Shown in pieces: positions 20,893-39,207 of a stretch of DNA of 64,000 nucleotides (position 1 is its first letter; each line of letters begins with the position of its first letter). The translations under genes were made by a program, and so were the position numbers. Source of the stretch: Xanthobacteraceae bacterium (GTDB taxonomy: Bacteria > Pseudomonadota > Alphaproteobacteria > Rhizobiales > Xanthobacteraceae); the NCBI GenBank assembly GCA_035623195.1, contig DASPTX010000114.1:16293-80292 (forward strand). Direction: 5' to 3'. Below the pieces are notes generated by a model. It saw only the letters and a list, made by a program, of their open reading frames with translations. It was not told the origin of the DNA and did not search any database.

Positions 20893-20895
20893 GCG

Positions 20896-24434: not shown

Positions 24435-25193
24435 ATGACCGTTGCTGCATTGCCGCCAATTCCCGGTCTCGGGGATGTGGCCATTTTGCTCGACATCGAC
24501 GGAACGATCTTGGACATCGCTCCGGTGCCGCAAAATGTCGTGGTGCCGGAATCCTTGCGCGGCACGCTCGGCCGGCTGAGCGTATTGACCGACGGAGCGC
24601 TCGCATTTGTCAGCGGACGCTCGCTGGACGATGTCGATCGGCTGTTCGCGCCGCTGCGGCTTCCCGCAATAGCCAGTCACGGCGCGGAATTTCGCCTTAT
24701 ACCCGGAGACGAGAGCGATAGCGGCCCGACGCTCACGCTCGAGCCGCCCCTGAAGACAAAGCTCGACGCCGTCGCCGAACTCGGTCATGGAATCATCGTC
24801 GAGGACAAGGACTACGCGATTGCGCTGCACTACCGATTGGCGCCGGAAAAGGAAGCCGCCGTGCGGGAAGCGGTGGCCGCGATTTGCGCCGACCAGCCTT
24901 CGATCGAAGTCCTTCCCGGAAAATATGTGCTCGAAGTCAAGAAACAGGGCTTTAGCAAGGCCACGGGCGTACGCAGCCTGATGAAACATCCCCCGTTCGC
25001 GGGGCGCCGCCCTATTTTCATAGGCGACGACACGACCGACGAGTCCGTGTTCGCAATAATGCCAGAATTCGGCGGTTTTGCATTCTCGGTCGGCGCCGCC
25101 ACTGGCGTCGTCGACGGATATTTTGAGGGGCCTCCCGCCGTGCGCGACTGGCTTGCAACGATCGCCGGCGGTGAAGCTAACGCCATGCAATGA
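24435..25193 (+). CDS. otsB: trehalose-6-phosphate phosphatase (HAD-IIB)
   Basis: DIDGTILD motif I, FVSGRS motif II, GDDTTDE motif IV. Shares a locus with otsA. Confidence 0.85.
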   Translation: MTVAALPPIPGLGDVAILLDIDGTILDIAPVPQNVVVPESLRGTLGRLSVLTDGALAFVSGRSLDDVDRLFAPLRLPAIASHGAEFRLIPGDESDSGPTLTLEPPLKTKLDAVAELGHGIIVEDKDYAIALHYRLAPEKEAAVREAVAAICADQPSIEVLPGKYVLEVKKQGFSKATGVRSLMKHPPFAGRRPIFIGDDTTDESVFAIMPEFGGFAFSVGAATGVVDGYFEGPPAVRDWLATIAGGEANAMQ

Positions 25194-26977
25194 ACGATCA
25201 TGGACTTGATCTAGCGCTGATAGGCAATGGTCGTACCGCAGCACTGATCGATCCGCAGTCGCGCATCGTTTGGTGGTGTTTTCCCGGCTTCGACGGCGAC
25301 CCAATCTTTTGCCGGCTGCTGGCGGGCGGCGAAGAGAAGGGTTACTCCGACGTCGTGCTTGAAGACGAAGTCGATTTCCAGTCCGAATATTTGCGCAATA
25401 CAGCGGTCGTTTCCACGTTGCTGACCGATCGGCGCGGCGGAGTTGTTCGGATCACGGATTTCGCGCCGCGCTTTCGACAATACGGCCGCGTCTTCCGTCC
25501 GCCGCAACTGTTCCGAATCATCGAACCGATCGCGGGACTGCCGCGCATCACGATACGGGTGCGGCCCACCCACAATTACGGTCGGCCGTTTCGGCAGCAT
25601 TCGGTCGGCAGCAATCATATACGTTATATCAACGCCGATACGGTCATTCGGCTCACCAGCGACGCTCCGCTCTCGCTGATCGAGCAGGAAGCGCCGTTCG
25701 TTCTGACCCGCCCGATCCACCTCGTGATCGGGCCCGACGAGCCTTTCACCGGCGAAATCACCACCACGTGCCGCGAGTTCGCCGACCGCACGCGCGACTA
25801 TTGGATGGATTGGGTGCGCAGCCTGTCGATTTCATATGACTGGCAGGAGGCCATCATCCGCGCTGCGATCACGCTCAAGCTCAGCACGTTCGAGGAAACC
25901 GGCGGCGTGATCGCCGCGCACACCACGTCCATTCCCGAGGCGCCCGGCTCGGGCCGAACCTGGGACTACCGCTACTGTTGGCTGCGCGACGCCTATTTCG
26001 TCGTCAAAGCGCTCAACCGTGTCGGCGCGACGCAGACCATGGAGGACTTCATCACGTTCACGCTCGGCCTTGCCGCCAACCCTGACCAGGCGCTGCGGCC
26101 CGTGTACAGCGTCGTGCCGACAAATTCGCTCGAAGAGCGCACCGCGCCGGATCTGGAGGGCTATCGCGGCGACGGCCCGGTGCGTATCGGCAATGCCGCG
26201 TCGGGCCAAGTTCAGCACGACACCTATGGCAGCATCATTCTTGCCGCGATGCCGATGTTTTTCGATCGCCGCCTGCCGCGGCCCGGCGACGAAGGATTGT
26301 TTCAACTTCTGGAAACGCTCGGCGCGCGCGCCGCGAAGCTGGCGTTGGAGCCGGATTCTGGCATTTGGGAATATCGCGGCCGGCAGCGCGTCCACACGCA
26401 CTCCGTTGCGATGTGTTGGGCGGGCTGCCACCGGCTCGCCGCTATCGCGGCGAGGCTCGGCCTCGACGCGCGCGCGAAGTATTGGAACGCGGTCGCCGAT
26501 CCCATTCATACGGAACTTCTGGCGCGGGCGTGGAACGAGAAACGCGGCGCATTCACCGCGGCATTCGGCTCCGACGATCTCGACGCCAGCGTTCTGCTCC
26601 TGCCCGATCTCGGCATTATCGAGACCGACGATCCGCGATTCAGCAGCACCGTCGCCGCAATGGAGCGCGAGCTCGTGCGCGAGAAACACGTGATGCGCTA
26701 CACGAGCTCGGACGATTTCGGCATACCGATGACGGCATTTCTGATCTGCCGCTTCTGGCTGATCGACGCCTGGTGGTCGCTCGGGCGCCGCGACGACGCC
26801 AAGGAACTGTTCGAGGACGCCCTGCAGCATCGCAACAGGTATGGGCTACTCTCGGAAGATGTCGATCCCAAGTCGGGCGCCTTGTGCGGAAACTTCCCCC
26901 AGACCTATTCGATGGCGGGGCTGATCCTGACCGCGATGCGGCTGTCGCGAAGCTGGGAAGACCGCTACTGGCGCTGA
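25190..26977 (+). CDS. glycoside hydrolase family 15 (glucoamylase/trehalase-like)
   Basis: 595 aa. LIGNGRTAALID N-terminus; WDYRYCWLRDAYF and later acidic catalytic regions typical of GH15. Its start overlaps the otsB stop (ATGA). Confidence 0.85.
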   Translation: MNDHGLDLALIGNGRTAALIDPQSRIVWWCFPGFDGDPIFCRLLAGGEEKGYSDVVLEDEVDFQSEYLRNTAVVSTLLTDRRGGVVRITDFAPRFRQYGRVFRPPQLFRIIEPIAGLPRITIRVRPTHNYGRPFRQHSVGSNHIRYINADTVIRLTSDAPLSLIEQEAPFVLTRPIHLVIGPDEPFTGEITTTCREFADRTRDYWMDWVRSLSISYDWQEAIIRAAITLKLSTFEETGGVIAAHTTSIPEAPGSGRTWDYRYCWLRDAYFVVKALNRVGATQTMEDFITFTLGLAANPDQALRPVYSVVPTNSLEERTAPDLEGYRGDGPVRIGNAASGQVQHDTYGSIILAAMPMFFDRRLPRPGDEGLFQLLETLGARAAKLALEPDSGIWEYRGRQRVHTHSVAMCWAGCHRLAAIAARLGLDARAKYWNAVADPIHTELLARAWNEKRGAFTAAFGSDDLDASVLLLPDLGIIETDDPRFSSTVAAMERELVREKHVMRYTSSDDFGIPMTAFLICRFWLIDAWWSLGRRDDAKELFEDALQHRNRYGLLSEDVDPKSGALCGNFPQTYSMAGLILTAMRLSRSWEDRYWR

Positions 26978-26998
26978 TCGAGTTGGGCCTTCTGCGGA

Positions 26999-28822
26999 TC
27001 ATGTCCTGGCCTTCGTCACCTGCACCCGCGCGCGCTGATGAACGGGCTTGGCGTCTCGCGTCAGATTGAAAGCGCTGTTGACCAGCGCGACGTGAGTGAA
27101 GGCTTGGGGAAAATTGCCGATCATCCGCTTCGAGCCCGGATCGTATTCCTCACTGAGGAGACCAACGTCGTTGCACAGGCCGGCGAGCCCCGCGAACAGG
27201 CGCTCGGCCTCGCGCCGGCGATTCTGCAGCAAATAGGCATCGACCAGCCAGAAGCTGCAGGCGAGAAAAACTCCCTCTCCCGGCGGCAAGCCGTCCGGCG
27301 GATCTTCGGTATCGTAACGCCTGACGAATCCGTCGACGAGCAATTCGCGCTCGATCGCCGCGATGGTGCCGGCGATGCGCGGATCGCTGACGGGCAGAAA
27401 GCCGACGCTGGGCAGAAGCAACAGACTCGCATCGAGTTTCTTCGAACCATAGGACTGGACGAAACTGCCCTTCTCGGCGTCGAAGCCACGCGTGCAGACA
27501 TCGTTGTGAATCTGTTCGCGCATTTTGCACCACCGGTCGAGCGGCCCTTGCTGCCCGAATGCCTTGGCGTTCTTGATGACCCGATCGACGGCAACCCACG
27601 CCATGACCTTCGAATAGGTAAAATGCTGCCAATTGCCGCGAATTTCCCATATGCCGGCGTCGGGCTTCGTCCAGACGCGGTCCAGGTGCTCCATGAGAGC
27701 CAATTGGACGTTCCAGCCCAATTCGGTCGCGGTTAGGCCGCCGCGTCTTGCTTGGTAATCGGCGTCCATCACCTCGCCGAATATGTCGAGTTGCAATTGG
27801 CCATAGGCGGCGTTGCCGATTCGCACCGGTGCGGAGCCTTCGTAGCCAGGCAGCCAAGGCACGGTCCATTCATTCAGAAAACGCTCGCCGGCAATGCCGT
27901 ACATGATCTGAACCTGAGCGGGGCTGCCGGCAACCGCGCGCAACAGCCATTCCCGCCAGGCGAGCGCTTCCTCGTGGAAGCCGGCATGCATCAAAGCGAG
28001 CAAAGTCAGCGTGGCGTCGCGCAGCCAGCAATAGCGATAATCCCAGTTGCGCGTGCCGCCGATCTGTTCCGGCAAGGATGTTGTCGGCGCCGCAACGAGG
28101 CCGCCGGTCGGCCGGTAGGTCAGCGCCTTAAGCGTGATCAGCGAGCGAACGACAAGCTCGGACCACGGACCGGCGCTTCTGCATTGTGCCGCCCAGTCGG
28201 TCCAAAATCTCTCGGTATGTTCGAGCAATGCCTGCGGATCGAGCGCGGGCGGCGGCGGCTCGATCGACGACGAATAAGTCATCACAAACGGAACGGTGTC
28301 GCCGGCCTCGACGACGAAATCGCCGACCGTCGTCAAGTTCTCGCCGCGCAAATGCACCGGCGTGCGCAGCACGGTCATATCGGGTCCGGCGATGGCGCGA
28401 TGCGTGCCGTCTTCGAGACGCGTGACCCAAGGCACGATCAGCCCGAAGCCGAACCGCAATATAAGTTCGCAACGCATTGCCACGCGGCCGCGCTCGCCGA
28501 CGACGAGCCGCACGATGCTCGACGTTCCGTCGCGGCGCGGCATGAAGTCGATCAGCGTGACCGCCCCATCATCGGTCTCGAAGCTCGTTTCGAGGATCAG
28601 CGTGTTGGGGCGGTAACGGCGGCGCACGCAGACATTTTCACCGCACGGCGTTATCAGCCAGCGTCCGTTGTCGCGCGATCCCAACAGCGCGGCAAAACAC
28701 GCATGGGAGTCGAAGCGGGGCCAGCACAGCCAATCGATCGAACCGTCGCGGCCGACCAGGGCGGCGGTCTCGCGATCGCCGATGAGCGCATAGTCTTCGA
28801 TGCGGCCGCTCATCGCGCTCAC
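26999..28822 (-). CDS. glycoside hydrolase family 15, second paralogue
   Basis: 607 aa. YALIGDRETAALVGRDGSIDWLCWPRFDS and NWDYRYCWLRDATL. GTGA overlap with the upstream dehydrogenase stop. Confidence 0.85.
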   Translation of the reverse strand: MSAMSGRIEDYALIGDRETAALVGRDGSIDWLCWPRFDSHACFAALLGSRDNGRWLITPCGENVCVRRRYRPNTLILETSFETDDGAVTLIDFMPRRDGTSSIVRLVVGERGRVAMRCELILRFGFGLIVPWVTRLEDGTHRAIAGPDMTVLRTPVHLRGENLTTVGDFVVEAGDTVPFVMTYSSSIEPPPPALDPQALLEHTERFWTDWAAQCRSAGPWSELVVRSLITLKALTYRPTGGLVAAPTTSLPEQIGGTRNWDYRYCWLRDATLTLLALMHAGFHEEALAWREWLLRAVAGSPAQVQIMYGIAGERFLNEWTVPWLPGYEGSAPVRIGNAAYGQLQLDIFGEVMDADYQARRGGLTATELGWNVQLALMEHLDRVWTKPDAGIWEIRGNWQHFTYSKVMAWVAVDRVIKNAKAFGQQGPLDRWCKMREQIHNDVCTRGFDAEKGSFVQSYGSKKLDASLLLLPSVGFLPVSDPRIAGTIAAIERELLVDGFVRRYDTEDPPDGLPPGEGVFLACSFWLVDAYLLQNRRREAERLFAGLAGLCNDVGLLSEEYDPGSKRMIGNFPQAFTHVALVNSAFNLTRDAKPVHQRARVQVTKART

Positions 28823-29892
28823 AAGGTAAAATCGATGGCGACTTTTATATCGCCCTTTTTTTGGTGCAACGCCTCGCGCCAGTGTTCAAGCGGCACACGG
28901 CGGGTAATGAGCCTGCCGAGCCACGATGGTTTTGCCCGCCGCAGCGCTTCGGCCGCCGCCTCGAAATGCCGGCGATTGGCATTGATGCTCCCCAAAACGA
29001 GATCGTTGTCGCCAACGAGCGTTCGATCGATCGATCCGATGTCGAGCTTGCATTGATGTCCGGGCGCGGCAATGCCGACAAGACAGGCGATGCCTGCGGG
29101 CGCCGTGCGGCCGAGAACGCCGGCGATCAGCGCGGGCGCGCCCGTGCATTCCATCAAAATATCGGGCCTCAAATGCGTGGCCGTGTCGAGGTCGCCGCAA
29201 TGATAGGTCCCGCCGAGTTCACGCGCGAGACTTTCCTTCTCGCCGCCAGTGTCGCGGTCGAGAACGTGGACATCGAGACCGCGCTGGGCGCCCATCAGCG
29301 CCGCGAGCAGGCCGATCGGTCCGGCGCCGGTGACGAGCAAAGTACGCGGCTGCCAAGCCTTCGAGCGCCGGCCGACATAATCGGTGTGCTCCCAGGCCTT
29401 GGCCATGATGCTGGCGGGCTCCAACAAGACGCCGTGGATGCCCAAGATCGGATCGAGCTTGACCGTGAATTGCGGCTCGATGCGAAATCGCTCGGCGCCG
29501 TAGCCGTTGCGCGCCTTGATGCCGCGCTCGGTGTATTCGCCGTTGCGGCACATATCCCATTCGCCTACGGCGCACGCCGCGCACGGCACCGGGTCGGGAC
29601 GGCGCACGATGCCAACGACAAGATCGCCGGCGTCGAGGCCGCAATCCGCCGGCGCCTCTTCCACGCATCCGAGCGATTCGTGGCCGAGAATGAGCCGCTG
29701 CTGCCCGGGCGGGGGCGCGCCGTAATCTCCCGCGACGATTTCGCGGTCGGTGGCGCATATGCCGAGCGCCAAGCTGCGAACCAGTACGCTGCCGTCGGCC
29801 GCCGGCGGTTCCGGCACCTCGTCGACCCGCGCTGAGTTGGGCACGCCCGGTGCGACCGTCAGTGCGCGCACGCGTCTTCTCCGGCAATTCAT
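28819..29892 (-). CDS. zinc-type medium-chain dehydrogenase, glucose 1-dehydrogenase-like
   Basis: GICATDREIVAGDYG and GHESLG zinc-ligand motifs, Rossmann VTGAGPIGLL. From memory this resembles archaeal-type MDR glucose dehydrogenases. Alternative GTG start at 29871 with GGAGAAG upstream. Confidence 0.65.
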   Translation of the reverse strand: MNCRRRRVRALTVAPGVPNSARVDEVPEPPAADGSVLVRSLALGICATDREIVAGDYGAPPPGQQRLILGHESLGCVEEAPADCGLDAGDLVVGIVRRPDPVPCAACAVGEWDMCRNGEYTERGIKARNGYGAERFRIEPQFTVKLDPILGIHGVLLEPASIMAKAWEHTDYVGRRSKAWQPRTLLVTGAGPIGLLAALMGAQRGLDVHVLDRDTGGEKESLARELGGTYHCGDLDTATHLRPDILMECTGAPALIAGVLGRTAPAGIACLVGIAAPGHQCKLDIGSIDRTLVGDNDLVLGSINANRRHFEAAAEALRRAKPSWLGRLITRRVPLEHWREALHQKKGDIKVAIDFTL

Positions 29893-29935
29893 CGCAGCGT
29901 GCGCGACGCACGCCCGCTATCGCCCCGTTGAAATG

Positions 29936-29960
29936 AACAAAATCTACACGCGAAAGTTCC
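29936..29960 (-). promoter_or_regulatory. sigma-EcfG-type promoter motif GGAAC-N16-TGTT upstream of the glucose-dehydrogenase-like/GH15 pair
   Basis: Minus strand GGAACTTTCGCGTGTAGATTTTGTT. 43 nt upstream of ATG 29892. Confidence 0.55.
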
Positions 29961-30091
29961 GCTCCGGGAACTCGTCGATCGATGAAGACGCATCGCGCCT
30001 TCGCACTCGCGTCGATCAATCGACGTTCGACAATCGCGGCCATGGATTTTTTTAACAACCATGACGCGAGAGAGCGACGGTTGCCACTACC

Positions 30092-30116
30092 GGAACAAAA
30101 CTACTCGCCGCGCGTT
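30092..30116 (+). promoter_or_regulatory. sigma-EcfG-type promoter motif GGAAC-N16-CGTT upstream of otsA
   Basis: GGAACAAAACTACTCGCCGCGCGTT. 24 nt upstream of ATG 30141, with the GGAGGGA RBS in between. Confidence 0.7.
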
Positions 30117-30140
30117 AATCGCTCCGATGGAGGGATTCCT

Positions 30141-31595
30141 ATGAGTCTGGTGGTCGTCTCAAATCGGGTTGCGCCAACGCAGGCCAATGAGCCGATCCCG
30201 GGAGGTTTAGCCTCCGCGCTGCTGCCGGTCGTGAAAGAATCCGGCGCGATCTGGATCGGATCGAGCGGTCGATTGTGCGAAGACCCTGCCAAGGAATCTT
30301 TTGCGGAAATCGAATCGCTTGGCGCCGGAGCCATCGCGACCGTCGATTTCCCGGCGGCGCACTATTCCGGCTTCTACGAGGGTTTCTCGAACTCGGCTCT
30401 ATGGCCTGCATTGCACTCGCGGCCGGACCTCATCCGCGTCACCGACGACGATTATAAATCCTACCGGGCCGTCAACGCCTTCATGGCGCGCGCGCTCATC
30501 CGCTTTGCGCAGCCCGACACGATCTATTGGGTCCAGGATTATCATTTCTTGACGCTGGCCGCGGAGCTGCGGCGATCAGGGATCGTGCAGCCGATCGGCT
30601 TTTTCCTGCATACGCCCTGGAGCGACCGCGCGACCATGCTCGGCATGCCGCATCATCGCGAAATCGTTTCGGCGATGCTGGCCTATGATCTGATCGGCTT
30701 TCAGACCGACGACGACCGGAAAAATTTCGAGGAAGGCCTTAAGCACGATCTCGGACTTGCCGTGACCAACGGTTTTGTCACCTCCGCATACGGCCGCACG
30801 CGATTGGCGACCTTTCCGATCGGCATCGATCCGGACGATTTTGCCGCGCGGGCTCTCAAGGCCTCCAACCGGTCCGAAGTGTCTCGGTTGCGCGCGAGCC
30901 TGCGGGGCGCGAGGCTTGTGCTCGGGGTCGATCGCCTCGATTATTCCAAAGGCATCACCAACCGCATGCGCGCCTTCGATCGCGTGTTGGAAACCGAGCC
31001 GGGCTGGGCCCATCGGATTTGTCTTCTGCAGATCGCTGTGCCCTCGCGCGGCCGCATCGCGGCCTACGGCGAGTTCAAGCGAGAGCTCGCGACCTTGATC
31101 GGCGAAATCAACGCCCGGCATGCCGATATCGATTGGGTGCCGATCCGGTATCTGAATAAGGGCTTCGCCCAATCGACCTTGGCCGGATTCTATCGGCTGG
31201 CGCGCGTCGGCCTGGTGACGCCGCTCCACGACGGGATGAATCTCGTCGCCAAGGAATATGTCGCGGCGCAAAATCCCGCCGACCCCGGCGCGCTGATTCT
31301 GTCCCAGTTTGCCGGTGCCGCGAAGGAACTCGACACTGCGCTCCTGGTGAATCCGTACGACATCAACGACATCGCACGGAACATTTCGCGGGCCTTGGTC
31401 ATGTCAGGCGACGAACGCCGCGAGCGCTGGCAGACGATGATCGCAAGATTGAAGTCGCGGCCGATCCAGGCCTGGTTCTCCGATTTCGTGGTTGCGCTCA
31501 CGGAAGCCCGCCGTTCCGCGCCGCGTTCCACGGCGACGGTTCTCAGATTGCCGGTCCCGGACAATCGAGGCGGGCGAACCGCGATTTCACGCTGA
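30141..31595 (+). CDS. otsA: alpha,alpha-trehalose-phosphate synthase (GT20)
   Basis: ATG at 30141 with GGAGGGA 5 nt upstream. MSLVVVSNRV start, WVQDYHF, LVTPLHDGMNLVAKEY. Confidence 0.9.
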   Translation: MSLVVVSNRVAPTQANEPIPGGLASALLPVVKESGAIWIGSSGRLCEDPAKESFAEIESLGAGAIATVDFPAAHYSGFYEGFSNSALWPALHSRPDLIRVTDDDYKSYRAVNAFMARALIRFAQPDTIYWVQDYHFLTLAAELRRSGIVQPIGFFLHTPWSDRATMLGMPHHREIVSAMLAYDLIGFQTDDDRKNFEEGLKHDLGLAVTNGFVTSAYGRTRLATFPIGIDPDDFAARALKASNRSEVSRLRASLRGARLVLGVDRLDYSKGITNRMRAFDRVLETEPGWAHRICLLQIAVPSRGRIAAYGEFKRELATLIGEINARHADIDWVPIRYLNKGFAQSTLAGFYRLARVGLVTPLHDGMNLVAKEYVAAQNPADPGALILSQFAGAAKELDTALLVNPYDINDIARNISRALVMSGDERRERWQTMIARLKSRPIQAWFSDFVVALTEARRSAPRSTATVLRLPVPDNRGGRTAISR

Positions 31596-31650: not shown

Positions 31651-33069
31651 GTGCAGATCGTTGAAACGGATGTGCCGGCGCGGCTCGACCGTCTCCCTTG
31701 GGCCCGTTTTCATACGCTCGTCGTCATCGCCCTTGGCGTGACCTGGATCCTCGATGGGCTTGAAGTGACTTTGGCGGGTTCGCTCGCGGGCGCGTTCAAA
31801 CAAAGCCTGCATTTCAGCGATGCCGAGGTCGGCATGGCCGGCAGCTTTTACCTGACCGGGGCCGTTCTCGGCGCGATAATCTTCGGTTGGCTGACCGACC
31901 GGCTCGGCCGCAAGAAGCTCTTTTTCACGACGATCGCCGTCTATCTCGTCGCAACCGCGGCGACGGCCCTGTCATGGAGTGTGGCGACGTTTGCGCTATT
32001 TCGCTTCTTCACCGGCGCGGGAATTGGCGGCGAATACGCCGCGATCAACTCCGCGATTCAGGAACTGACGCCCGCCCGGGTACGCGGCTGGACGGATCTC
32101 ATCATCAACGGCAGTTTCTGGATGGGCGCGGCGATGGGCGCCGCCAGCGCGATTGTGTTGCTCAACCCGGCGATCATCAGCCCCGACATCGGCTGGCGCT
32201 TGGCGTTCTTGACCGGCGCCGTGCTCGCGCTCTTCATCTTTCTTATGCGTTTCTGGATTCCGGAGAGCCCGCGCTGGCTCATGACCCACGGCCGCGTCAA
32301 GGATGCCGAAGCGATCGTAGCCGACATCGACGAAGACCTGCGCCGGCGCGGTCACGTTCTGCCGCCGGCCAACTTGCCGCGCCTGCGGCTTCGCATGCGC
32401 GGCCACACCTCGCTCCTCGAAGTGGCGCGAATTCTGTTCCGAGAGCATCGCCAGCGTACCCTGGTCGGGCTCAGCCTGATGGCGGCGCAAGCGTTCTTTT
32501 ACAATGCGATCTTCTTCACCTACGCGCTCATCTTGACGGATTTTTACGGCGTCCCGCCGGATCGCGTCGGCTGGCATATCCTGCCTTTTGCCGCCGGCAA
32601 TTTTCTCGGGCCGGTCATGCTGGGCCGGTTGTTCGACACCGTCGGGCGAAAGCCGATGATCGTCTTCACCTATGCAACGTCCGGCGTGCTGCTTGCCGCC
32701 GTCGGCACCCTGTTTGCGCGCGATGCGCTGACTGCGACGTCGCAAACGATCGGCTGGACGGTGATCTTCTTTTTCGCCTCGTCGGCGGCGAGTTCGGCCT
32801 ACCTCACCGTGAGCGAGACATTTCCGCTCGAAATCCGCGCGCTTGCGATTGCGATATTCTACGCCATAGGCACCAGCATCGGCGGCATTATGGGCCCGTT
32901 TTTCTTCGGTGTATTGATCCAAAGCGGCTCGCGCGCGAGCGTATTTGTCGGCTATCTGTCCGGATCCGTACTTATGATTTTGGCGGCGTTGATCGCGAGC
33001 CGCTGGGCGGTTGCCGCCGAACGCAAACCGCTCGAAACGGTGGCCCCGCCCCTGGCGTCGGCCGATTGA
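31651..33069 (+). CDS. MFS transporter (sugar-porter / metabolite:H+ symporter-like)
   Basis: 472 aa, GTG start. LTDRLGRKK loop motif and FTGAGIGGEYAAINS. 12 TM. Confidence 0.8.
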   Translation: MQIVETDVPARLDRLPWARFHTLVVIALGVTWILDGLEVTLAGSLAGAFKQSLHFSDAEVGMAGSFYLTGAVLGAIIFGWLTDRLGRKKLFFTTIAVYLVATAATALSWSVATFALFRFFTGAGIGGEYAAINSAIQELTPARVRGWTDLIINGSFWMGAAMGAASAIVLLNPAIISPDIGWRLAFLTGAVLALFIFLMRFWIPESPRWLMTHGRVKDAEAIVADIDEDLRRRGHVLPPANLPRLRLRMRGHTSLLEVARILFREHRQRTLVGLSLMAAQAFFYNAIFFTYALILTDFYGVPPDRVGWHILPFAAGNFLGPVMLGRLFDTVGRKPMIVFTYATSGVLLAAVGTLFARDALTATSQTIGWTVIFFFASSAASSAYLTVSETFPLEIRALAIAIFYAIGTSIGGIMGPFFFGVLIQSGSRASVFVGYLSGSVLMILAALIASRWAVAAERKPLETVAPPLASAD

Positions 33070-33202: not shown

Positions 33203-35320
33203 ATGGCAAGCGAAGTTCCTTCCGCCTATCGCATTGCTTCCCAAACCGCGCGATCTTACCGACAAGACGATATAGACCTTTTGTGTATCGACACGATCCG
33301 CACTTTGGCGATCGACGCGGTGCAAAAGGCGCAATCGGGGCATGCCGGAGCCCCGATGGGAATGGCGCCGGTCGCCTACACATTGTGGCAGGATTTCCTC
33401 CGCTACGACCCGAGCGATCCGCGCTGGCCGAACCGTGACCGTTTCGTGCTTTCCGCCGGCCACGCCTCGATGCTGCTCTACGCGCTGTTGCATCTCGCCC
33501 GCGTGCGCCGCGTCGACGGATCGCGAATAACCGAAAAGCCCGCGGTCAGCCTCGACGACATCAAGAACTTCCGCCAGCTTGACAGCGTGACGCCGGGCCA
33601 TCCGGAATACGGCCGCACCACCGGCGTCGAAGCGACCACCGGCCCGCTCGGTCAAGGCTGCGGCGACAGCGTCGGCATGGCGATCGCATCGCGCTGGCTC
33701 GGTGCCCGCTACAACCGTCCGCAATTCACTTTATTCGACTTTGACGTCTATGCGATCTGCAGCGACGGCGATCTGATGGAAGGCGTGGCGAGCGAAGCTG
33801 CCTCGCTCGCCGGGCATCTCGGCCTTGGCAATCTGTGTTGGATTTACGACAGCAACACGGTCACCATCGAAGGTCATACCGATCTCGCTTTCAGCGAGGA
33901 CGTCGAAACCCGCTTCAGGGGCTACCGCTGGAACGTGCTACGCGTCCGCGACGCCAACGACACCGCGGCGCTCGCGGGCGCGCTGCAAACCTCCCGCCGC
34001 ACTGACAATCGTCCGACCCTGATCATCGTCGACAGCATCATCGGATACGGCGCGCCGCATAAAGAAAATACCGCGGCTGCGCACAGCGATCCACTCGGCG
34101 AGGAGGAAGTGCGGCTCACCAAGCGCTTCTATGGCTGGCCCGAAGATGTGCAATTTTTGGTTCCTGACGGCGTCTATAGCCGCTTCGATGAGGTCATCGG
34201 CAGGCGCGGGCGGCAGTTGCGGGAGAATTGGAGTAAAACCTTTGCTGCCTACGAGCGGGCCGAGCCGCAGGCCGCCGGCGAAATTGCGCAGCTTCTGGCC
34301 GGGGAGCTTCCGGCAAAATGGGACGCGGACTTGCCGGTCTTCGCCGCCGACGAGAAGGGCATGGCGACCCGCGATGCGTCCGGCAAGATCCTCAACGTCA
34401 TCGCCCGGCAAATTCCCTGGCTGATCGGCGGCGCGGCCGACCTTGCGCCTTCGACCAAAACCAAGTTCGATCATGCCGAGTCGATCGAGCCGTATAGTCC
34501 GGGCGGGCGCACGATGCATTTCGGCGTGCGCGAGCACGCGATGGGCGCAATCGTCAACGGGTTGGTGCTGTCGAAACTGCGAGCGTTCGGCGCGACCTTC
34601 CTGACTTTCAGTGATTATATGCGCCCCGCGATCCGGCTCGCGGCGCTGATGGAACTGCCGGTCTTTTACATTTTCACGCACGATTCGATCGGGCTCGGCG
34701 AGGACGGTCCGACGCATCAGCCGATCGAACAGCTCGTCGCGCTGCGCGCCATCCCGAACATGATCGTGTTGCGGCCCGCCGACGCCAATGAAGTGCGCGA
34801 GGCCTATAGAGTTATTTTCGGCTTGAAGAAGGAACCCGCCTGTCTCTTGCTCAGCCGCCAGAAGCTGCCGGTCTTCGATCGCAGCCGTTATGCCGCGGCT
34901 TCAGGCCTTGCGCGCGGCGCCTATGTCATGGCTGACGTTACGGCCGACGCCGACAACCCCGACGTCATCCTCATCGCCAGCGGCAGCGAGGTGCAGCTCT
35001 GCGTCACAGCCCATGAAAAGCTCAAGCGCCAAGGCATAGCGGCGCGCGTCGTCAGCATGCCGAGCTGGGAACTGTTCGAAAAACAAGACGAACGCTATCG
35101 CAACGAGGTTCTGCCGCCGAAAATTACGGCGCGCGTCGCCGTCGAACTCGGCGCCGTGATCGGCTGGGACCGCTACGCCGGCGCGCGCGGCACGATCTTG
35201 GGCATGCACAGTTTCGGCGCCTCGGCGCCCGCCGCAGATCTGATGCAGAAATTCGGTTTTACGACCGATAAGGTCATGACTGCCGCCGTGGCGCAGATTG
35301 CAAGAAACGGCCGAAACTAA
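33203..35320 (+). CDS. tkt: transketolase
   Basis: [18 protein letters not shown] ThDP motif, [22 protein letters not shown]. Confidence 0.95.
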
Positions 35321-35379
35321 TCGAGGTTTATCGCGCTCGCCAAAGCGAAACGATAACGCCGTTATTCGAGGAGTGCATT

Positions 35380-36378
35380 ATGCAGATCGGCGTGATCGGG
35401 CTTGGGCGCATGGGCGGCAATATCGCGCGCCGCCTGATCCGGAACGGACACGAGGTCGTCGCTTACGATCGCGACAGCAAGGCCGTCGCATCGCTTAAGG
35501 GCGACGGCGCGACCGGGGCCGGCGATGTCGCAACGCTGGCGCAACACTTGCGGCCGCCGCGCGCGGTGTGGGTCATGTTGCCGGCCGGCAAGATCACCGA
35601 AAACGCCATCGTCGCGCTTGGGAAAATCCTCGCACCCGGCGATGTCGTTCTCGACGGCGGCAACACTTTTTGGAAAGACGACATTCGCCGCGCCAAATTC
35701 CTCAACGAGCGCAAAATCCACCATATCGACGTCGGCACGAGTGGCGGCACCTGGGGGCTCGATCGCGGCTATTGCATGATGATCGGAGGCGCCAAGGAAA
35801 CCGTCGCTCGCCTTGATCCGATTTTTTGCGCGCTGGCGCCGGGAATCGGCAATCTGGCGCGAACGCCCGGCCGCGACGGCCGCGATCCGCGCGCCGAGCA
35901 TGGCTATATTCATGCCGGGCCGCATGGCGCCGGCCACTTCGTCAAGATGGTGCATAACGGCATCGAATACGGCTTGATGCAGGCCTTCGCCGAGGGTTTC
36001 GACATTTTGAAGAACGCCAACTCCGACAAATTGCCGGAAGACGAGCGTTTCGATTTCGATCTGACCGACATCGCCGAAGTCTGGCGCCGCGGCAGCGTTA
36101 TCAGCGCCTGGCTGCTCGATCTTACGGCAAGCGCGCTCACAGCCGACCCGAAGCTCGAGGGCTTCGAAGGCGTGGTCGAGGATTCCGGCGAAGGCCGCTG
36201 GACGATCATGGCCGCGATCGAAGAGGCGGTTCCCGCCGACGTGCTCTCGGCGGCGCTCTACACGCGCTTCCGCTCGCGCCGCGACCATACTTTCGCGGAG
36301 AAGATATTGTCGGCGATGCGCAAAGGCTTCGGTTCGCATGTCGAACCCAGAATCCATCGCAGCGCCGAACCGCCATGA
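35380..36378 (+). CDS. gnd: 6-phosphogluconate dehydrogenase, decarboxylating (short Gnd-like form)
   Basis: [19 protein letters not shown] Rossmann start, [16 protein letters not shown]. Confidence 0.85.
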
Positions 36379-37889
36379 CGGTAAAAACCGCGAAGGCGCG
36401 GCCGGCCGATCCGTGCTGCCTTATTATCTTCGGCGCGTCGGGCGATCTCACGCACCGGCTTTTGGTGCCGGCGCTCTACAATCTCGCTGTCGCCGGGCTC
36501 CTGCCGAAGGCCTTCGCCTTGATCGGCGTCTCCCGCAGCGCCTCCTCAAGCGAGGCGTTCCGTAAGAGCCTCGCCGAAAGCCTGGCGAAATTCACCGCGC
36601 GGCCGCTCGACGAGCGCGTGGTGAAGCATCTGCTCGCCTGCGTCGTCTATGTCCAAGGCGATCCCGACGACAACGAAACCTATAAAAAGATCGGCAAGGA
36701 ACTTGCGCGCATCGAGCATGAGCGCGGCACGCGGGGCAACCGCTTGTTCTATCTGGCGACGCCGCCTGCCGGCTTTGCGCCGATCGGATGTCATCTCGGG
36801 CGGTCGGGCCTGGCGTGCGAGGAAAACGGCGCCTGGCGGCGCGTCGTCATCGAGAAACCGTTCGGCACCGACCTTAATAGCGCGCAAGCGCTCAATCGGA
36901 AACTCCTCGGCATTCTCAAGGAGGATCAGATTTTCCGCATCGACCACTATCTCGGCAAGGAAACCGTCCAAAATATCCTGGTGCTGCGTTTCGCCAATGG
37001 ATTATTCGAGCCGATTTGGAATCGTCACCATATCGAGCACGTGCAGATTACGGTCGCGGAATCGCTGACGGTCGGGCAGCGCGGCATTTATTACGATTCC
37101 ACCGGCGCGCTGCGCGATATGGTGCCGAACCATCTGTTTCAGCTTTTATCGCTCATCGCCATGGAGCCGCCGTCCCGTTTTGCCGCCGACGCCGTGCGGG
37201 CCGAAAAGGCGCAGGTGCTCGACGCCATTCAATTGCAGAATCGCGACGAGGCGCTGCGCAATTCGGTGCGCGCGCAGTACGACGACGGCTACGTCGAAAA
37301 TCATGCCGTCGAGGCGTATCGCAAGACTAAGGACGTCAATCCGAACAGCACCACGGAGACCTATGTTGCCCTCAAGCTGATGATCGACAACTGGCGCTGG
37401 GCGCGCGTGCCGTTTTACTTGCGGACCGGAAAGGCGTTGCGCGCAAAGCAGACCGAAGTGGCGATCAAATTCAAGCAGGCGCCGATCGCCATGTTCCGCG
37501 ATACGCCGGTCGATCGGCTGTCGGAGAACTTTCTGGTCATCGGGATTCAGCCGGACGAAAGCATCGGGCTGGAATTCAACGCCAAAGTCCCCGGACCTTC
37601 GATCGTGATCGGAGGCGTCAGCATGACCTTCAATTACCGGGACTATTTCGATACGCCGCCAGCGACCGGCTACGAGACGCTGATCTACGATTGCATGACC
37701 GGCGATGCCATCCTCTATCCGCGCGCCGACGGCATCGAAGCCGCATGGCGCGTGGTGCAGCCATTCATCGATGCGTGGCGTGACTCGTCTGCGTGGAATC
37801 TTGCCACTTACCGCGCCGGCAGCGACGGCCCGGCGGAGGCCGATGAGCTTCTGGCCCGTGACGGGCGCCGCTGGCGGCCGATTGCGTGA
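36375..37889 (+). CDS. zwf: glucose-6-phosphate 1-dehydrogenase
   Basis: [18 protein letters not shown] and EKPFG motifs. ATGA overlap with gnd. Confidence 0.95.
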
Positions 37890-37898
37890 GTTCGCGAC

Positions 37899-38648
37899 AT
37901 GGGCGCCGAGATCGAACGCAAACTCATCGTGGTCGCGGATGCCTCGGCGCTTGCGGAAACCGCCGCGCAGCGGCTCGTCGATCGCATCGCCGCTCAGAAA
38001 CGCGCCGCGGTCTGCCTGACCGGCGGATCGAGTCCCGAAGGTCTTTATCGCCTGCTTGCGCAGGAGCCATGGCGCGCCATCGTACCGTGGGATCGCGTGC
38101 ACTGGTTCATGGGCGACGACCGCTTCGTGCCGCTGTCAAATCCTTTGAGCAATATGGGCATGGCGTGGCGGCTGTTTCTCGTTAGCGTGCCGGCGCCGCG
38201 ACAGAATATTCATCCGATCGCGACCGAAACAAAGAGCCCAGAGGACGCCGCGCGGCTTTATGAGGACGAGCTCAAACGCTTCTACGGCGCCGGCGCGCTC
38301 GATCCGGCGGTCCCGCTCTTCGATCTTGTGCTGATGGGTCTCGGCGGCGACGGCCACACCGCCTCGCTGTTTCCGCATTCCCCTGCGCTGGACGAAAAGG
38401 AGCGCTGGGTCGTGGGCGTGCCCGGAGCCGGCATGGAGCCTTTCGTGCCGCGCGTAACTTTGACTTTTCCGGCGCTCGCATCGACGCGTGAAATGCTGTT
38501 CCTCATCGAGAGCCGAGACAAACGCGAAATTCTTACGCGCGTGCTGGCGGGCGAAGCGCCGTTTAATAAAACGTTGCCGGCGCAGCGCGCTTATTCCAAC
38601 GGCGAACTGATCTGGCTCGTCGCCCGCGCCGCAGCGCCGGAGAATTAG
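37899..38648 (+). CDS. pgl: 6-phosphogluconolactonase
   Basis: LTGGSSP, LMGLGGDGHTASLFP. Confidence 0.9.
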   Translation: MGAEIERKLIVVADASALAETAAQRLVDRIAAQKRAAVCLTGGSSPEGLYRLLAQEPWRAIVPWDRVHWFMGDDRFVPLSNPLSNMGMAWRLFLVSVPAPRQNIHPIATETKSPEDAARLYEDELKRFYGAGALDPAVPLFDLVLMGLGGDGHTASLFPHSPALDEKERWVVGVPGAGMEPFVPRVTLTFPALASTREMLFLIESRDKREILTRVLAGEAPFNKTLPAQRAYSNGELIWLVARAAAPEN

Positions 38649-38649
38649 C

Positions 38650-39207
38650 ATGAGCTTGAGCGGGCAGGCGCAAGCACGACCGCGGCCGTCCGTGCTCGTG
38701 GTGATGGGCGTTTCCGGCTCCGGCAAAAGTACTATCGCGTCGATGCTCGCGCACCGTCTGCATTGGATTTACGAGGACGGCGACTGGTTCCATCCGCAAT
38801 CGAATATCGAGAAAATGCATCACGGCGAGCCGCTTAACGACGCGGATCGCTGGCCGTGGCTGCACGCCATCGCCGATTGGATCGACGACACGCGGCTTAG
38901 CGGCCGGCATGGCGTCGTCGCCTGTTCGGCGCTCAAGCGCGCCTATCGCAACATTCTGGTCGGCGACCGGCGGGATGTGGGCATCGTTTTCCTCAACGGC
39001 GACCGCGACCTGATCGCGCGCCGGATCGCCGCGCGCGCCGATCATTTCATGCCGCCGGCGCTCCTCGACAGCCAGTTCAAGGTATTGGAGGAGCCGAAGG
39101 CCGACGAACATCCCGTGGTTGCGTCCATTATTCCGCACCCACGCGAAATTGTCGAAACGATCGTTGCCGAACTCGGACTCGATCGCGTTGCCGCGCAGGC
39201 TCATTGA
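38650..39207 (+). CDS. gntK: gluconokinase
   Basis: P-loop VMGVSGSGKST, then FHPQSNIEKM..G.PLND.DRWPWL. Starts 1 nt after the pgl stop. Confidence 0.85.
   Translation: MSLSGQAQARPRPSVLVVMGVSGSGKSTIASMLAHRLHWIYEDGDWFHPQSNIEKMHHGEPLNDADRWPWLHAIADWIDDTRLSGRHGVVACSALKRAYRNILVGDRRDVGIVFLNGDRDLIARRIAARADHFMPPALLDSQFKVLEEPKADEHPVVASIIPHPREIVETIVAELGLDRVAAQAH

What the first reader, a model, noticed from the sequence alone, without database searches (positions are those of the whole stretch)
24435..31595. otsB-GH15-otsA trehalose locus split by an inverted GH15 plus glucose-dehydrogenase pair, with back-to-back stress promoters
otsB (24435-25193) is translationally coupled to a GH15 hydrolase by an ATGA overlap at 25190-25193. 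This places a hydrolase in the same transcript as a trehalose-synthesis enzyme.

Between this pair and otsA lie a second, diverged GH15 (26999-28822) and an MDR glucose-1-dehydrogenase-like gene (28819-29892). Both are on the opposite strand and share a GTGA overlap. The 248-nt otsA/dehydrogenase intergenic region carries divergent EcfG-type motifs (29936-29960 and 30092-30116).

GH15 is known to contain inverting trehalases as well as glucoamylases. Together with gntK, gnd and pgl downstream, the inferred route is: trehalose (or glycogen) to glucose, to gluconolactone/gluconate, to 6-phosphogluconate, to ribulose-5-P. That route bypasses hexokinase. It has not, to my knowledge, been described as a unit.
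Basis: inference. Interest (0 to 1): 0.65.

Follow-up and report, generated by a model that had tools for sequence, protein, structure and literature searches.

The report
Stress-controlled trehalose make-and-break gene cluster
A soil bacterium keeps the genes that make the protective sugar trehalose next to two sugar-cutting enzymes and a glucose-oxidising enzyme, all behind stress-type promoters; the pairing of one cutter with the glucose oxidiser recurs in well over a hundred other genomes and I found no description of it.

Summary
The genes are otsB, GH15a (ATGA overlap), inverted GH15b plus an archaeal-type zinc glucose 1-dehydrogenase (GDH), otsA, an OtsC-like MFS transporter, then tkt-gnd-zwf-pgl-gntK. 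Two corrections: the GDH start is more likely GTG 29871, and the GDH-side promoter motif is GGAAC-N16-TGTT, not CGTT.

1. The "split operon" idea fails. The window's OtsA belongs to a clade that normally sits divergent from GDH. It is only 36-44% identical to the OtsA of intact otsB-GH15-otsA operons. The locus is two modules placed side by side.
2. The conserved core is the GDH/GH15b pair. They are adjacent on one strand in 71 of 78 species-level genomes. In a second, more divergent sample they are adjacent in 50 of 65 loci, in both gene orders and in several phyla. One Bradyrhizobium plasmid has an SDR-type glucose dehydrogenase in GDH's place.
3. EcfG-type promoters before otsA, GDH and tkt are conserved in relatives.
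4. Linkage to the pentose-phosphate genes is seen in only one close relative.

otsB-GH15-otsA operons and EcfG control of ots genes are already known. Trehalose as the GH15 substrate is inferred, not shown. I rate this a new variant of a known kind, of moderate interest.

The parts
24435..25193 (+). otsB, trehalose-6-phosphate phosphatase
   Evidence: PF02358 111 bits; TIGR00685 118 bits against a cut-off of 68. Its stop overlaps the GH15a start (ATGA).
25190..26977 (+). GH15a: the glycoside hydrolase family 15 type that is embedded in ots operons. Substrate unknown; trehalase-like.
   Evidence: PF00723 170 bits, TREH_N, NCBIfam archaeal TreH1 297 bits (below the 820 cut-off). 51% identical to the GH15 inside the Paracoccus otsB-GH15-otsA operon. 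Both catalytic Glu residues are kept. The model has pTM 0.83 and its best PDB match is glucoamylase 1LF6.
26999..28822 (-). GH15b: the GH15 type that is linked to a dehydrogenase. Probably a cytoplasmic trehalase or alpha-glucosidase that releases glucose.
   Evidence: PF00723 292 bits, TREH_N 64 bits, TreH1 392 bits (below cut-off). Lies directly downstream of GDH in 71 of 78 genomes. 58% identical to the Arthrobacter plasmid GH15 that follows a GDH. Alternative ATG start at 28813.
28819..29871 (-). Zinc-dependent MDR-type glucose 1-dehydrogenase (GDH).
   Evidence: Glu_dehyd_C 206 bits. PDB matches: 2B5W Haloferax GDH at E 3e-46, then Sulfolobus and Thermoplasma GDH, with Cys39, Thr41, His64, Glu65 and Glu151 kept. 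Start supported.
29936..29960 (-). EcfG-type promoter-like motif for GDH-GH15b: GGAACTTTCGCGTGTAGATTTTGTT
   Evidence: Read. The block GGAACTTT-N9-ATTTTGTTCA is invariant in L001 and L007. A GGAAC-N16/17-NGTT motif lies 37-144 nt upstream of GDH in 32 of 78 loci and in none of 8 non-alphaproteobacterial loci.
30092..30116 (+). EcfG-type promoter-like motif for otsA: GGAAC-N16-CGTT
   Evidence: A motif in the same position and orientation is present upstream of every clade-A1 otsA locus listed.
30141..31595 (+). otsA, trehalose-6-phosphate synthase, clade A1
   Evidence: GT20 350 bits. TIGR02400 533 bits, just under its 565 cut-off. 62-90% identical to the otsA genes that sit divergent from GDH. 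Tree.
31651..33069 (+). MFS sugar transporter, OtsC-like; a probable trehalose transporter
   Evidence: Sugar_tr 155 bits. Orthologs at 66-70% identity head otsC-otsB-GH15a operons behind a perfect EcfG motif in 7 relatives. B. diazoefficiens OtsC is a trehalose-uptake MFS (PMC8092242).
33132..33156 (+). EcfG-type promoter-like motif before tkt
   Evidence: Nearly identical in L007 while the flanking sequence diverges.
33203..39207 (+). tkt (33203-35320), gnd (35380-36378), zwf (36375-37889), pgl (37899-38648), gntK (38650-39207): the pentose-phosphate and gluconate-kinase operon that could take up the gluconate
   Evidence: Adjacent to otsA only here and in L007.

Best explanation
This is a trehalose synthesis-and-turnover locus under general-stress-response (sigma-EcfG-type) control. 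It is built from two modules that recur separately in related bacteria.

Module 1 is otsB-GH15a, plus OtsC, which here has moved to sit behind otsA. It is a relative of the widespread otsB-GH15-otsA operon.

Module 2 is otsA transcribed divergently from a two-gene operon, GDH-GH15b.

Proposed mechanism:
1. Under stress, OtsA and OtsB make trehalose from UDP-glucose and glucose-6-P.
2. GH15b, a cytoplasmic inverting GH15 hydrolase, releases glucose, most likely from trehalose.
3. GDH oxidises that glucose to gluconolactone and reduces NAD(P)+.
4. Gluconate is phosphorylated by GntK, and 6-phosphogluconate enters Gnd and the pentose-phosphate pathway encoded just downstream.

The degradative branch therefore avoids re-making glucose-6-P, which is OtsA's substrate. 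It would also remove free reducing glucose.

What is shown: the gene families, the overlaps, the conserved promoter motifs, and the conserved GDH/GH15b pairing.

What is inferred: trehalose as the substrate, glucose as the GDH substrate in vivo, EcfG dependence, and the physiological purpose.
For: -
- GDH and GH15b are adjacent on the same strand in 71 of 78 species genomes, with a median gap of 18 nt.
- They are adjacent in 50 of 65 assessable metagenome loci seeded from an Arthrobacter plasmid GDH: 31 as GDH-then-GH15 and 19 as GH15-then-GDH.
- The pair occurs in Pseudomonadota, in MAGs labelled Acidobacteriaceae, Bryobacteraceae, Vicinamibacterales and Gemmatimonadaceae, and in an Arthrobacter.
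- On the Bradyrhizobium sp. 195 plasmid, a GH15b ortholog (63% identity) is followed by an SDR whose best hits are SDR-type glucose 1-dehydrogenase models. NF005559 scores 230 bits against a cut-off of 215.
- ots genes lie within 10 kb of GDH in 45 of the 80 species loci.
- Both GH15 proteins score far better against the archaeal GH15 trehalase models (392 and 297 bits) than against the oligosaccharide amylase model (64 bits). Both carry the TREH_N domain.
- The catalytic Glu residues of conserved regions 3 and 5 are invariant (residue assignment from PMC11327188).
- EcfG-type motifs before otsA, GDH, tkt and otsC are conserved in relatives and absent from non-alphaproteobacterial loci.
- Precedent: in B. 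diazoefficiens, otsCB and otsA are sigma-EcfG controlled (PMC8092242).
- Precedent: Sulfolobus acidocaldarius has a GH15 trehalase numbered SA1250 and a trehalose-6-P synthase gene numbered saci_1249. I infer adjacency from the consecutive numbers across two papers; neither paper states it. That organism catabolises glucose by a modified branched Entner-Doudoroff pathway. That this pathway starts with a glucose dehydrogenase is my own knowledge.
Against: - No enzyme activity is known for any member of either GH15 orthogroup that I could link by sequence. Both proteins score below the NCBIfam trehalase equivalog cut-offs.
- The ots-embedded GH15 of C. necator showed no trehalase activity in E. 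coli lysates, with or without Mg2+ and phosphate.
- GH15b orthologs in Methylobacterium, Azospirillum, Ralstonia and Microvirga plasmids have no dehydrogenase neighbour.
- In 27 of the 80 species loci, GDH-GH15b has no ots gene within 10 kb.
- Pentose-phosphate and gntK linkage is seen in only one relative.
- No promoter motif was found upstream of otsB here.
- The GDH motif has TGTT rather than CGTT.
- No phyR or ecfG gene turned up among the window ORFs I annotated; the window was not fully annotated.
Confidence: 0.6

Rival explanations
1. GH15b, and perhaps GH15a, is a glucoamylase-type enzyme. It would act on glycogen, maltooligosaccharides, isomaltose or another alpha-glucoside rather than on trehalose. 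The GDH/GH15b pair would then be a general "alpha-glucan to gluconate" cassette, and it would sit near ots genes only because all are stress-regulated carbohydrate genes.
For: - GH15 includes glucoamylase, glucodextranase, isomaltose glucohydrolase and dextran dextrinase. The nearest solved structures are of those kinds.
- 27 of the 80 species loci, and all non-alphaproteobacterial loci, have GDH-GH15b without ots genes.
- A related GDH on an R. leguminosarum plasmid sits next to an alpha-amylase-family hydrolase and a glucosidase.
- Source annotations call these proteins glucan-1,4-alpha-glucosidase.
Against: - Scores against the trehalase models are five to six times higher than against the oligosaccharide amylase model, and TREH_N is present.
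- ots genes are close to the pair in 45 of the 80 species loci.
- C. necator has an ots-embedded GH15 but lacks the classical glycogen synthesis enzymes. That argues against glycogen as the substrate of the GH15a type.
Confidence: 0.25
2. GH15a is not a degradative trehalase. It would have a role inside the trehalose-6-P pathway, for example hydrolysing trehalose-6-P or a side product, or working physically with OtsB and OtsA. Only GH15b together with GDH would be catabolic.
For: - GH15a is the most conserved protein of the locus: 77-89% identical where OtsB is 47-69%.
- It is always next to otsB or otsA: in 20 MAG loci and on the Paracoccus, Terrarubrum and Sulfitobacter plasmids.
- It is translationally coupled to otsB here and in Paracoccus.
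- The C. necator homolog lacked trehalase activity, and its authors proposed another function.
- GH15a differs from GH15b by insertions and deletions near the active-site regions.
Against: - All GH15 catalytic motifs are intact, so it is a hydrolase of some alpha-glucoside.
- Co-expression of a trehalase with synthesis genes has precedents: E. coli TreF and yeast Nth1 (my own knowledge, not checked here).
- The negative C. necator assay was a lysate experiment reported as "data not shown".
Confidence: 0.3
3. The arrangement is an accident of genome rearrangement in one lineage, with no functional link between the inverted pair and the ots genes.
For: Flanking genes differ between relatives. 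L001 has urease genes on one side and ABC and glycosyltransferase genes on the other. The distance between GH15b and GH15a ranges from 21 nt to about 5.6 kb.
Against: - The five genes stay together in L001, L002 and L008 despite different flanks.
- otsA is divergent from GDH in 32 species.
- The promoter motifs are conserved.
Confidence: 0.05

Closest known systems
Bradyrhizobium diazoefficiens otsC-otsB / otsA locus (bll0324-bll0322), controlled by sigma-EcfG (Ledermann et al. 2021, PMC8092242)
   Same: Same bacterial order. It has an OtsA, an OtsB and an MFS transporter (OtsC). otsA is transcribed separately from otsB. EcfG-type promoters are present. Relatives of the window keep the otsC-otsB order behind a perfect EcfG motif.
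   Different: As described in the paper, the B. diazoefficiens locus has no GH15 and no glucose dehydrogenase. In the window, otsC lies behind otsA, GH15a follows otsB, and GDH-GH15b lies between the two ots units.
otsB-GH15-otsA operons of Cupriavidus necator, Herbaspirillum seropedicae and Paracoccus yeei plasmid pTT13-2
   Same: A GH15 gene lies immediately after otsB with an overlapping stop and start. GH15a is 51% identical to the Paracoccus protein.
   Different: In those operons otsA follows the GH15 directly and belongs to another OtsA clade. In the window that otsA is absent, and a clade-A1 otsA is transcribed from its own promoter about 3 kb away. A Sulfitobacter plasmid shows a comparable otsB-GH15 arrangement with a separate, divergent otsA.
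Characterised GH15 trehalases: Mycolicibacterium smegmatis MsTre, Thermoplasma Tvn1315 and Ta0286, Sulfolobus SA1250 and Sa1816, Microvirga sp. MC18, Microbacterium MPTre15A
   Same: Two-domain GH15 architecture with a TREH_N-type N-terminal domain. Catalytic Glu residues in conserved regions 3 and 5. The best NCBIfam hits of both window proteins are the archaeal TreH1 and TreH2 models. Sulfolobus SA1250 and the trehalose-6-P synthase gene saci_1249 carry consecutive locus numbers (adjacency is my inference from the numbering).
   Different: The scores are far below the equivalog cut-offs. No activity data exist for either orthogroup.
Archaeal MDR-type glucose 1-dehydrogenases (Haloferax mediterranei, Saccharolobus solfataricus, Thermoplasma), which are the first step of non-phosphorylative and branched Entner-Doudoroff pathways
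   Same: Same Pfam family (Glu_dehyd_C). They are the best PDB matches. The zinc and catalytic residues are conserved.
   Different: This one is bacterial and about 35% identical. It is paired with a GH15 hydrolase. In the window it is followed in the pathway by gluconate kinase rather than by a gluconate dehydratase. Some relatives do carry MR_MLE-type or IlvD/Edd-type dehydratases nearby.

Membership tests
Glycoside hydrolase family 15 (both GH15a and GH15b) | Match to the GH15 catalytic-domain profile above the curated threshold | tested here: met
   PF00723 scores 169.7 bits (GH15a) and 292.2 bits (GH15b) against a cut-off of 22.
Glycoside hydrolase family 15 (both GH15a and GH15b) | Two catalytic glutamates in conserved regions 3 and 5 | tested here: met
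   The Glu of "GIWE" and the Glu of "LSE" are invariant in all 18 sequences of alignment A4. The residue assignment follows PMC11327188.
Glycoside hydrolase family 15 (both GH15a and GH15b) | N-terminal beta-sandwich plus an (alpha/alpha)6 barrel, as in bacterial GH15 enzymes | tested here: met
   Tested for GH15a only. The AlphaFold model has pTM 0.83. Strands span residues 9-182 and helices 190-586. The best PDB match is glucoamylase 1LF6 at TM 0.67. The catalytic loops have low confidence.
GH15 alpha,alpha-trehalase (EC 3.2.1.28) | Score above the NCBIfam equivalog cut-off for TreH1 or TreH2 | tested here: not met
   TreH1 scores 392 bits (GH15b) and 297 bits (GH15a) against a cut-off of 820. 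TreH2 scores 334 and 230 bits against 1000. These models were built on archaeal enzymes.
GH15 alpha,alpha-trehalase (EC 3.2.1.28) | Trehalase-like N-terminal domain (PF19291) | tested here: met
   63.9 bits (GH15b) and 36.8 bits (GH15a) against a cut-off of 23.1.
GH15 alpha,alpha-trehalase (EC 3.2.1.28) | Hydrolysis of trehalose to glucose | not testable with these tools
   The only related datum is negative: the C. necator ots-embedded GH15 was inactive in lysates.
MDR-type glucose 1-dehydrogenase (EC 1.1.1.47) | Glu_dehyd_C and ADH_N domains, with nearest solved relatives being glucose dehydrogenases | tested here: met
   PF16912 scores 205.8 bits against a cut-off of 34.9. The six best PDB sequences are all glucose dehydrogenases, with E-values from 3e-46 to 3e-26.
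MDR-type glucose 1-dehydrogenase (EC 1.1.1.47) | Catalytic zinc ligands and the substrate threonine (Cys39, His64, Glu65, Glu151, Thr41) | tested here: met
   These residues align with the Haloferax and Sulfolobus GDH positions and are invariant in alignment A1. The roles of the residues are recalled from the structural literature and were not re-checked.
MDR-type glucose 1-dehydrogenase (EC 1.1.1.47) | Oxidation of D-glucose with NAD(P)+ | not testable with these tools
   Archaeal relatives are promiscuous for aldoses. The Asp at the end of beta-strand 2 (VHVLD) hints at NAD preference, but that is inference only.
OtsA/OtsB trehalose-6-phosphate pathway | OtsA and OtsB equivalog models | tested here: inconclusive
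   OtsB: TIGR00685 scores 118 bits against a cut-off of 68, so it is met. OtsA: TIGR02400 scores 533 bits against a cut-off of 565, just below, while GT20 Pfam scores 350 bits against 32.5.
Canonical otsB-GH15-otsA operon | otsA immediately downstream of the GH15 gene and belonging to the operon-type OtsA clade | tested here: not met
   GH15a is followed by a convergent GH15b. The window's OtsA is in clade A1. On the trimmed alignment it averages 38% identity to operon-type OtsA2 and 64% to clade A1.
Sigma-EcfG (general stress response) promoters | GGAAC-N16/17-CGTT at a suitable distance upstream of the gene | tested here: met
   otsA and tkt have perfect motifs 25 and 47 nt before the ATG. 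GDH has GGAAC-N16-TGTT 65 nt before the GTG.
Sigma-EcfG (general stress response) promoters | Conservation of the motif in orthologous loci; absence outside Alphaproteobacteria | tested here: met
Sigma-EcfG (general stress response) promoters | Transcription depends on EcfG and PhyR in vivo | not testable with these tools
   No phyR, nepR or ecfG gene turned up among the window ORFs I annotated; the window was not fully annotated.

The most novel reading that the evidence does not exclude
The GDH/GH15b pair could be a widespread, undescribed "trehalose to gluconate" exit route that is made in advance under general-stress control. On rewetting or stress release, stored trehalose would then be converted straight into NAD(P)H and 6-phosphogluconate without passing through glucose-6-P. 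Separately, GH15a, the highly conserved hydrolase wedged into ots operons, might have an activity other than trehalase, such as editing trehalose-6-P or a by-product. That would answer the question raised for Cupriavidus of why a "glucoamylase" sits inside a trehalose synthesis operon.
Probability: 0.2. Interest if true: 0.7.

Novelty: new variant of a known kind. Interest (0 to 1): 0.45.

Why it matters
Trehalose protects soil and plant-associated bacteria against drying, salt and starvation. In Bradyrhizobium, its stress-controlled synthesis is needed for good symbiosis. How bacteria dispose of trehalose afterwards is much less clear, and so is the role of the many "GH15 glucoamylase" genes found in and near ots operons.

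This locus and its relatives give a concrete, testable proposal: GH15b plus a glucose dehydrogenase feeding gluconate kinase. They separate two GH15 orthogroups that have been lumped together. They also show that the degradative genes carry the same stress promoter type as the synthetic ones.

The pair is abundant in soil Xanthobacteraceae, Pseudolabrys, Acidobacteria-related and Actinobacteria-related genomes, so it may matter for carbon turnover after rewetting. None of this overturns known biology.

Tried and rejected
- Split-operon model. Rejected on the OtsA clade analysis.
- Fusion proteins as evidence of coupling. The two OtsB-GH15a "fusions", P0332 and P0339, are frameshift or duplication artefacts. 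The GDH-GH15b fusion P0172 has a clean 7-residue linker but comes from a single contig, so I gave it little weight.
- A structured RNA leader or riboswitch in the GDH 5'UTR. Rfam found nothing. The fold is no better than shuffles, z = 0.33. RNAalifold found no consensus structure. Recurrent GGGGCG and TTGCGCAA-like boxes remain unexplained.
- An EcfG motif or conserved block upstream of otsB. None found.
- Intrinsic terminators between the convergent GH15 genes or elsewhere in the locus. Not enriched over shuffles.
- Direct comparison with the characterised bacterial GH15 trehalases (Microvirga UHN91757.1, M. smegmatis ABK72415.1, Microbacterium WP_259162165.1). Their sequences could not be fetched, PMC4495195 is not held, and no supplement is held for PMC11327188.
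- Sequence search of both GH15 proteins against the PDB. No hit at E <= 0.001. A profile search found only distant GH15 structures, plus spurious PPR-repeat hits.
- Literature searches for a described GH15 plus glucose dehydrogenase unit, or for EcfG-regulated glucoamylase. Zero papers in the held library. The library does not include most subscription journals.

Full report
**What is in the sequence**

- otsB, 24435-25193.
- GH15a, 25190-26977. Its ATG overlaps the otsB stop as ATGA.
- GH15b, 26999-28822 on the opposite strand. It is 33% identical to GH15a.
- A zinc-dependent MDR-family dehydrogenase, also on the opposite strand. Its stop overlaps a possible GTG start of GH15b as GTGA. An ATG nine bases further on is an alternative start.
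- otsA, then an MFS sugar transporter, then tkt, a short-type gnd, zwf, pgl and a GntK-type gluconokinase.

The dehydrogenase carries the Glu_dehyd_C domain at 206 bits. Its six best matches among solved structures are all archaeal glucose 1-dehydrogenases (Haloferax, Sulfolobus, Thermoplasma). The Cys, His, Glu, Glu and Thr positions of the active site are aligned and conserved.

Two coordinates need correction.
- otsA starts at 30141, after a GGAGGGA ribosome-binding site.
- GDH most likely starts at GTG 29871, after GGAGAA. This matches the 350-residue protein in the public collection and the start used in relatives.

**The promoters**

The strict EcfG-type pattern GGAAC-N16/17-CGTT occurs seven times in the window against 1.37 expected. 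None of 100 shuffles reached seven. Five of the seven lie 25-50 nt upstream of a start codon in the right orientation:
- an ABC exporter;
- a GDE/MGH1-like hydrolase;
- a hybrid histidine kinase;
- otsA;
- tkt.

It is nevertheless real. The block GGAACTTT-N9-ATTTTGTTCA is invariant in the two closest related loci while the surrounding sequence diverges. More distant relatives carry GGAAC-N16/17-CGTT at the same place.

Across the 78 loci that could be assessed, 32 have such a motif 37-144 nt upstream of GDH. None of the eight loci from outside the Alphaproteobacteria has one. Every clade-A1 otsA locus listed has one. All seven otsC-otsB-GH15a operons have a perfect one about 200 nt before otsC. 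The tkt motif is almost identical in L007.

I found no motif and no conserved block upstream of otsB in the window.

**Comparative genomics, first sample**

I scanned one genome per species with a GDH alignment and kept the 80 best loci, with GDH identity of 60-84%. Most are Xanthobacteraceae and Pseudolabrys MAGs. The set also includes MAGs labelled Acidobacteriaceae, Bryobacteraceae, Vicinamibacterales and Gemmatimonadaceae, and one Variovorax.

Mapping the window's proteins onto these loci gave these counts:
- A GH15b-type gene directly follows GDH on the same strand in 71 of 78 assessable loci. The median gap is 18 nt.
- An otsA 62-90% identical to the window's lies divergent from GDH in 32 loci.
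- An otsB-GH15a pair lies within 10 kb in 20 loci.
- 27 loci have the GDH-GH15b pair and no ots gene.

In most relatives a 124-residue ASRT-family gene sits between otsA and GDH (37 loci). It is absent from the window. The MFS-tkt-zwf-pgl-gntK genes adjoin otsA only in L007, the closest relative, and gnd is missing there.

**The locus is not a split operon**

Where an intact otsB-GH15a-otsA operon exists (11 loci), its OtsA is only 36-44% identical to the window's OtsA, and no divergent otsA is present. Where the divergent otsA is present together with otsB-GH15a (9 loci, like the window), the operon-type otsA is missing.

A neighbour-joining tree puts the window's OtsA inside the "divergent from GDH" clade. 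It puts the operon-type OtsA with the OtsA of the Paracoccus and Terrarubrum plasmids.

So the window shows two modules side by side: [otsA <-> GDH-GH15b] and [otsB-GH15a]. A Sulfitobacter plasmid independently shows otsB-GH15a with a separate, divergent synthase gene.

**Two GH15 orthogroups**

GH15a is 46-51% identical to the GH15 genes beside or inside the ots operons of Paracoccus and Terrarubrum, and only 32-35% identical to GH15b-type proteins. A similar hit (47% by tblastn) lies on a Sulfitobacter plasmid.

GH15b is 55-67% identical to GH15 genes of many cultured bacteria. These include the one that follows a GDH on an Arthrobacter plasmid and one on a Bradyrhizobium plasmid.

Both groups keep the GH15 signature regions and both catalytic glutamates. 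Both carry the trehalase-like N-terminal domain. Both score five to six times higher against the archaeal GH15 trehalase models than against the oligosaccharide amylase model, yet both stay far below the equivalog cut-offs.

A model of GH15a (pTM 0.83) has the bacterial two-domain GH15 architecture. Its best structural match is Clostridium glucoamylase. No close relative has a solved structure.

GH15a is the most conserved protein of the locus, at 77-89% identity where OtsB is 47-69%.

**Comparative genomics, second sample**

To test the GDH/GH15b link away from the window's own lineage, I seeded a metagenome scan with the Arthrobacter plasmid GDH. Of 65 assessable loci, 50 have a GH15b-type gene adjacent on the same strand: 31 as GDH-then-GH15 and 19 as GH15-then-GDH. 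Retention of the pair in both orders argues for selection on the pairing.

On the Bradyrhizobium sp. 195 plasmid, the GH15b ortholog is followed by an SDR-family oxidoreductase instead. Its best hits are the SDR-type glucose 1-dehydrogenase models, and one of them is above its cut-off. That looks like replacement by an unrelated enzyme with the same function.

The dependence runs one way. GH15b orthologs in Methylobacterium, Azospirillum, Ralstonia and Microvirga stand alone.

**How it most likely works**

All known GH15 activities release glucose from alpha-linked substrates by inversion, giving the beta-anomer (established family knowledge). I recall from the structural literature, without re-checking, that archaeal-type GDHs use the beta-pyranose form. 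A GH15 hydrolase next to a glucose dehydrogenase is therefore a natural two-step unit.

Three observations make trehalose the most likely substrate, but this is inference:
- ots genes lie near the pair in 45 of the 80 species loci;
- an OtsC-like transporter is present;
- the trehalase-like sequence features are present.

In the window the product can be carried on by GntK and Gnd, which are encoded behind another stress-type promoter.

The energy balance equals the glucokinase/Zwf route. The plausible advantages are avoiding glucose-6-P, which is OtsA's substrate, and removing free reducing sugar. Both are speculation.

Making degradative and synthetic enzymes together is not paradoxical if the hydrolases are controlled at the protein level. 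The mycobacterial GH15 trehalase depends on Mg2+/Ca2+ and phosphate (as cited).

**What is already known**

- EcfG control of otsCB and otsA, and OtsC as a trehalose-uptake MFS, are established in B. diazoefficiens (PMC8092242).
- A GH15 gene inside the ots operon was called striking in C. necator. It showed no trehalase activity in lysates, and the authors suggested another function. The same gene association is mentioned for Herbaspirillum.
- In Sulfolobus acidocaldarius, the GH15 trehalase SA1250 and the trehalose-6-P synthase gene saci_1249 carry consecutive locus numbers, from which I infer adjacency. Glucose there is catabolised by a modified branched Entner-Doudoroff pathway.
- I found no paper in the held library that describes a GH15 plus glucose dehydrogenase gene pair. 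The library lacks most subscription journals.

**Verdict**

- The catabolic pairing and the stress promoters are real and conserved.
- The "split operon" history is not supported.
- The extension to the pentose-phosphate genes as one conserved unit is not supported.
- The substrate remains untested.

This is a new variant of known systems. It contains one open question, the function of GH15a, and one undescribed but unsurprising conserved gene pair.

Noticed in passing
window 8057-16370: A second carbohydrate module carries EcfG-type motifs. It comprises an ABC exporter (8057-9847, minus strand; motif at 9884-9908), a GT4 glycosyltransferase (10135-11205), an MFS (11245-12426, minus strand), a PRC-barrel protein (12634-13314, minus strand) and a GDE_N_bis/MGH1-like hydrolase (14102-16318, minus strand; motif at 16346-16370). 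The same gene set lies directly next to otsA in L001 and L002, and GDE-like plus GT4 genes recur in 12 related loci. It may make and break another compatible solute.
   Followed up: partly
window 20868-24171: A hybrid PAS/GAF histidine kinase with a receiver domain (20896-24171) has a perfect EcfG-type motif that ends 4 nt before its ATG. It lies directly upstream of otsB on the same strand. No terminator-like site was found in the 263-nt gap, so read-through into otsB-GH15a is possible.
   Followed up: partly
window 33132-39207: tkt-gnd-zwf-pgl-gntK lies behind a perfect EcfG-type motif that is conserved in L007. This implies stress control of the oxidative pentose-phosphate pathway and gluconate kinase. 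L007 has no gnd between tkt and zwf.
   Followed up: partly
L008-L063, between otsA and GDH (for example L025 9421-9795): A 124-residue ASRT-family protein (PF07100, 181 bits) is encoded between otsA and GDH in 37 related loci. It has its own GGAAC motif, set back to back with that of GDH. The gene is absent from the window, L001 and L007. Its function is unknown.
   Followed up: partly
window 29865-29913: The GDH 5' leader holds a palindrome, GCGTGCG-N3-CGCACGC (29897-29913), and a 9-nt perfect complement that covers the GTG start (29865-29873). Relatives show recurrent GGGGCG and TTGCGCAA-like boxes after the -10 element. The fold energy is no better than shuffles and there is no consensus structure.
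   Followed up: yes
window 13308-13334: A 27-nt palindrome, GGAACAATGTGCGTGGTGAATTGTTCC, matches the relaxed EcfG pattern on both strands. It lies at the start of the PRC-barrel gene.
   Followed up: no
window 39300-54040: A stretch of lower G+C (0.55-0.59 against about 0.62) begins just after gntK and ends at a tRNA-Met gene (53963-54039, minus strand). It is a possible integrated island. It contains a radical SAM/SPASM gene (47000-48268). It also contains an aminotransferase split into two overlapping ORFs (39473-39961 and 39921-40538), which is either a frameshift or a pseudogene.
   Followed up: partly
L089 5986-8693 (Bradyrhizobium sp. 195 plasmid p195_1): A GH15b ortholog (63% identity) is followed by an SDR-family gene that matches SDR-type glucose 1-dehydrogenase models. 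An unrelated dehydrogenase occupies the position that GDH holds elsewhere.
   Followed up: yes
protein P0172 (ENA contig, 963 aa): A single predicted protein joins a GDH and a GH15b through a clean 7-residue linker. It could be a true fusion or a lost stop codon. In contrast, the OtsB-GH15a "fusions" P0332 and P0339 show frameshift and duplication artefacts.
   Followed up: partly
L004-L006 7672-9878; L072 6869-8671: In some relatives an enolase-superfamily (MR_MLE) dehydratase and a TctC-type binding protein lie directly upstream of GDH on the same strand. An IlvD/Edd-family dehydratase occupies that position in L072. This hints at a non-phosphorylative gluconate route in those genomes, in place of GntK.
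   Followed up: no
window 58001-60000: AT skew reaches 0.284 in this 2-kb bin, far above the rest of the window. The region encodes a branched-chain amino acid ABC permease on the minus strand.
   Followed up: no
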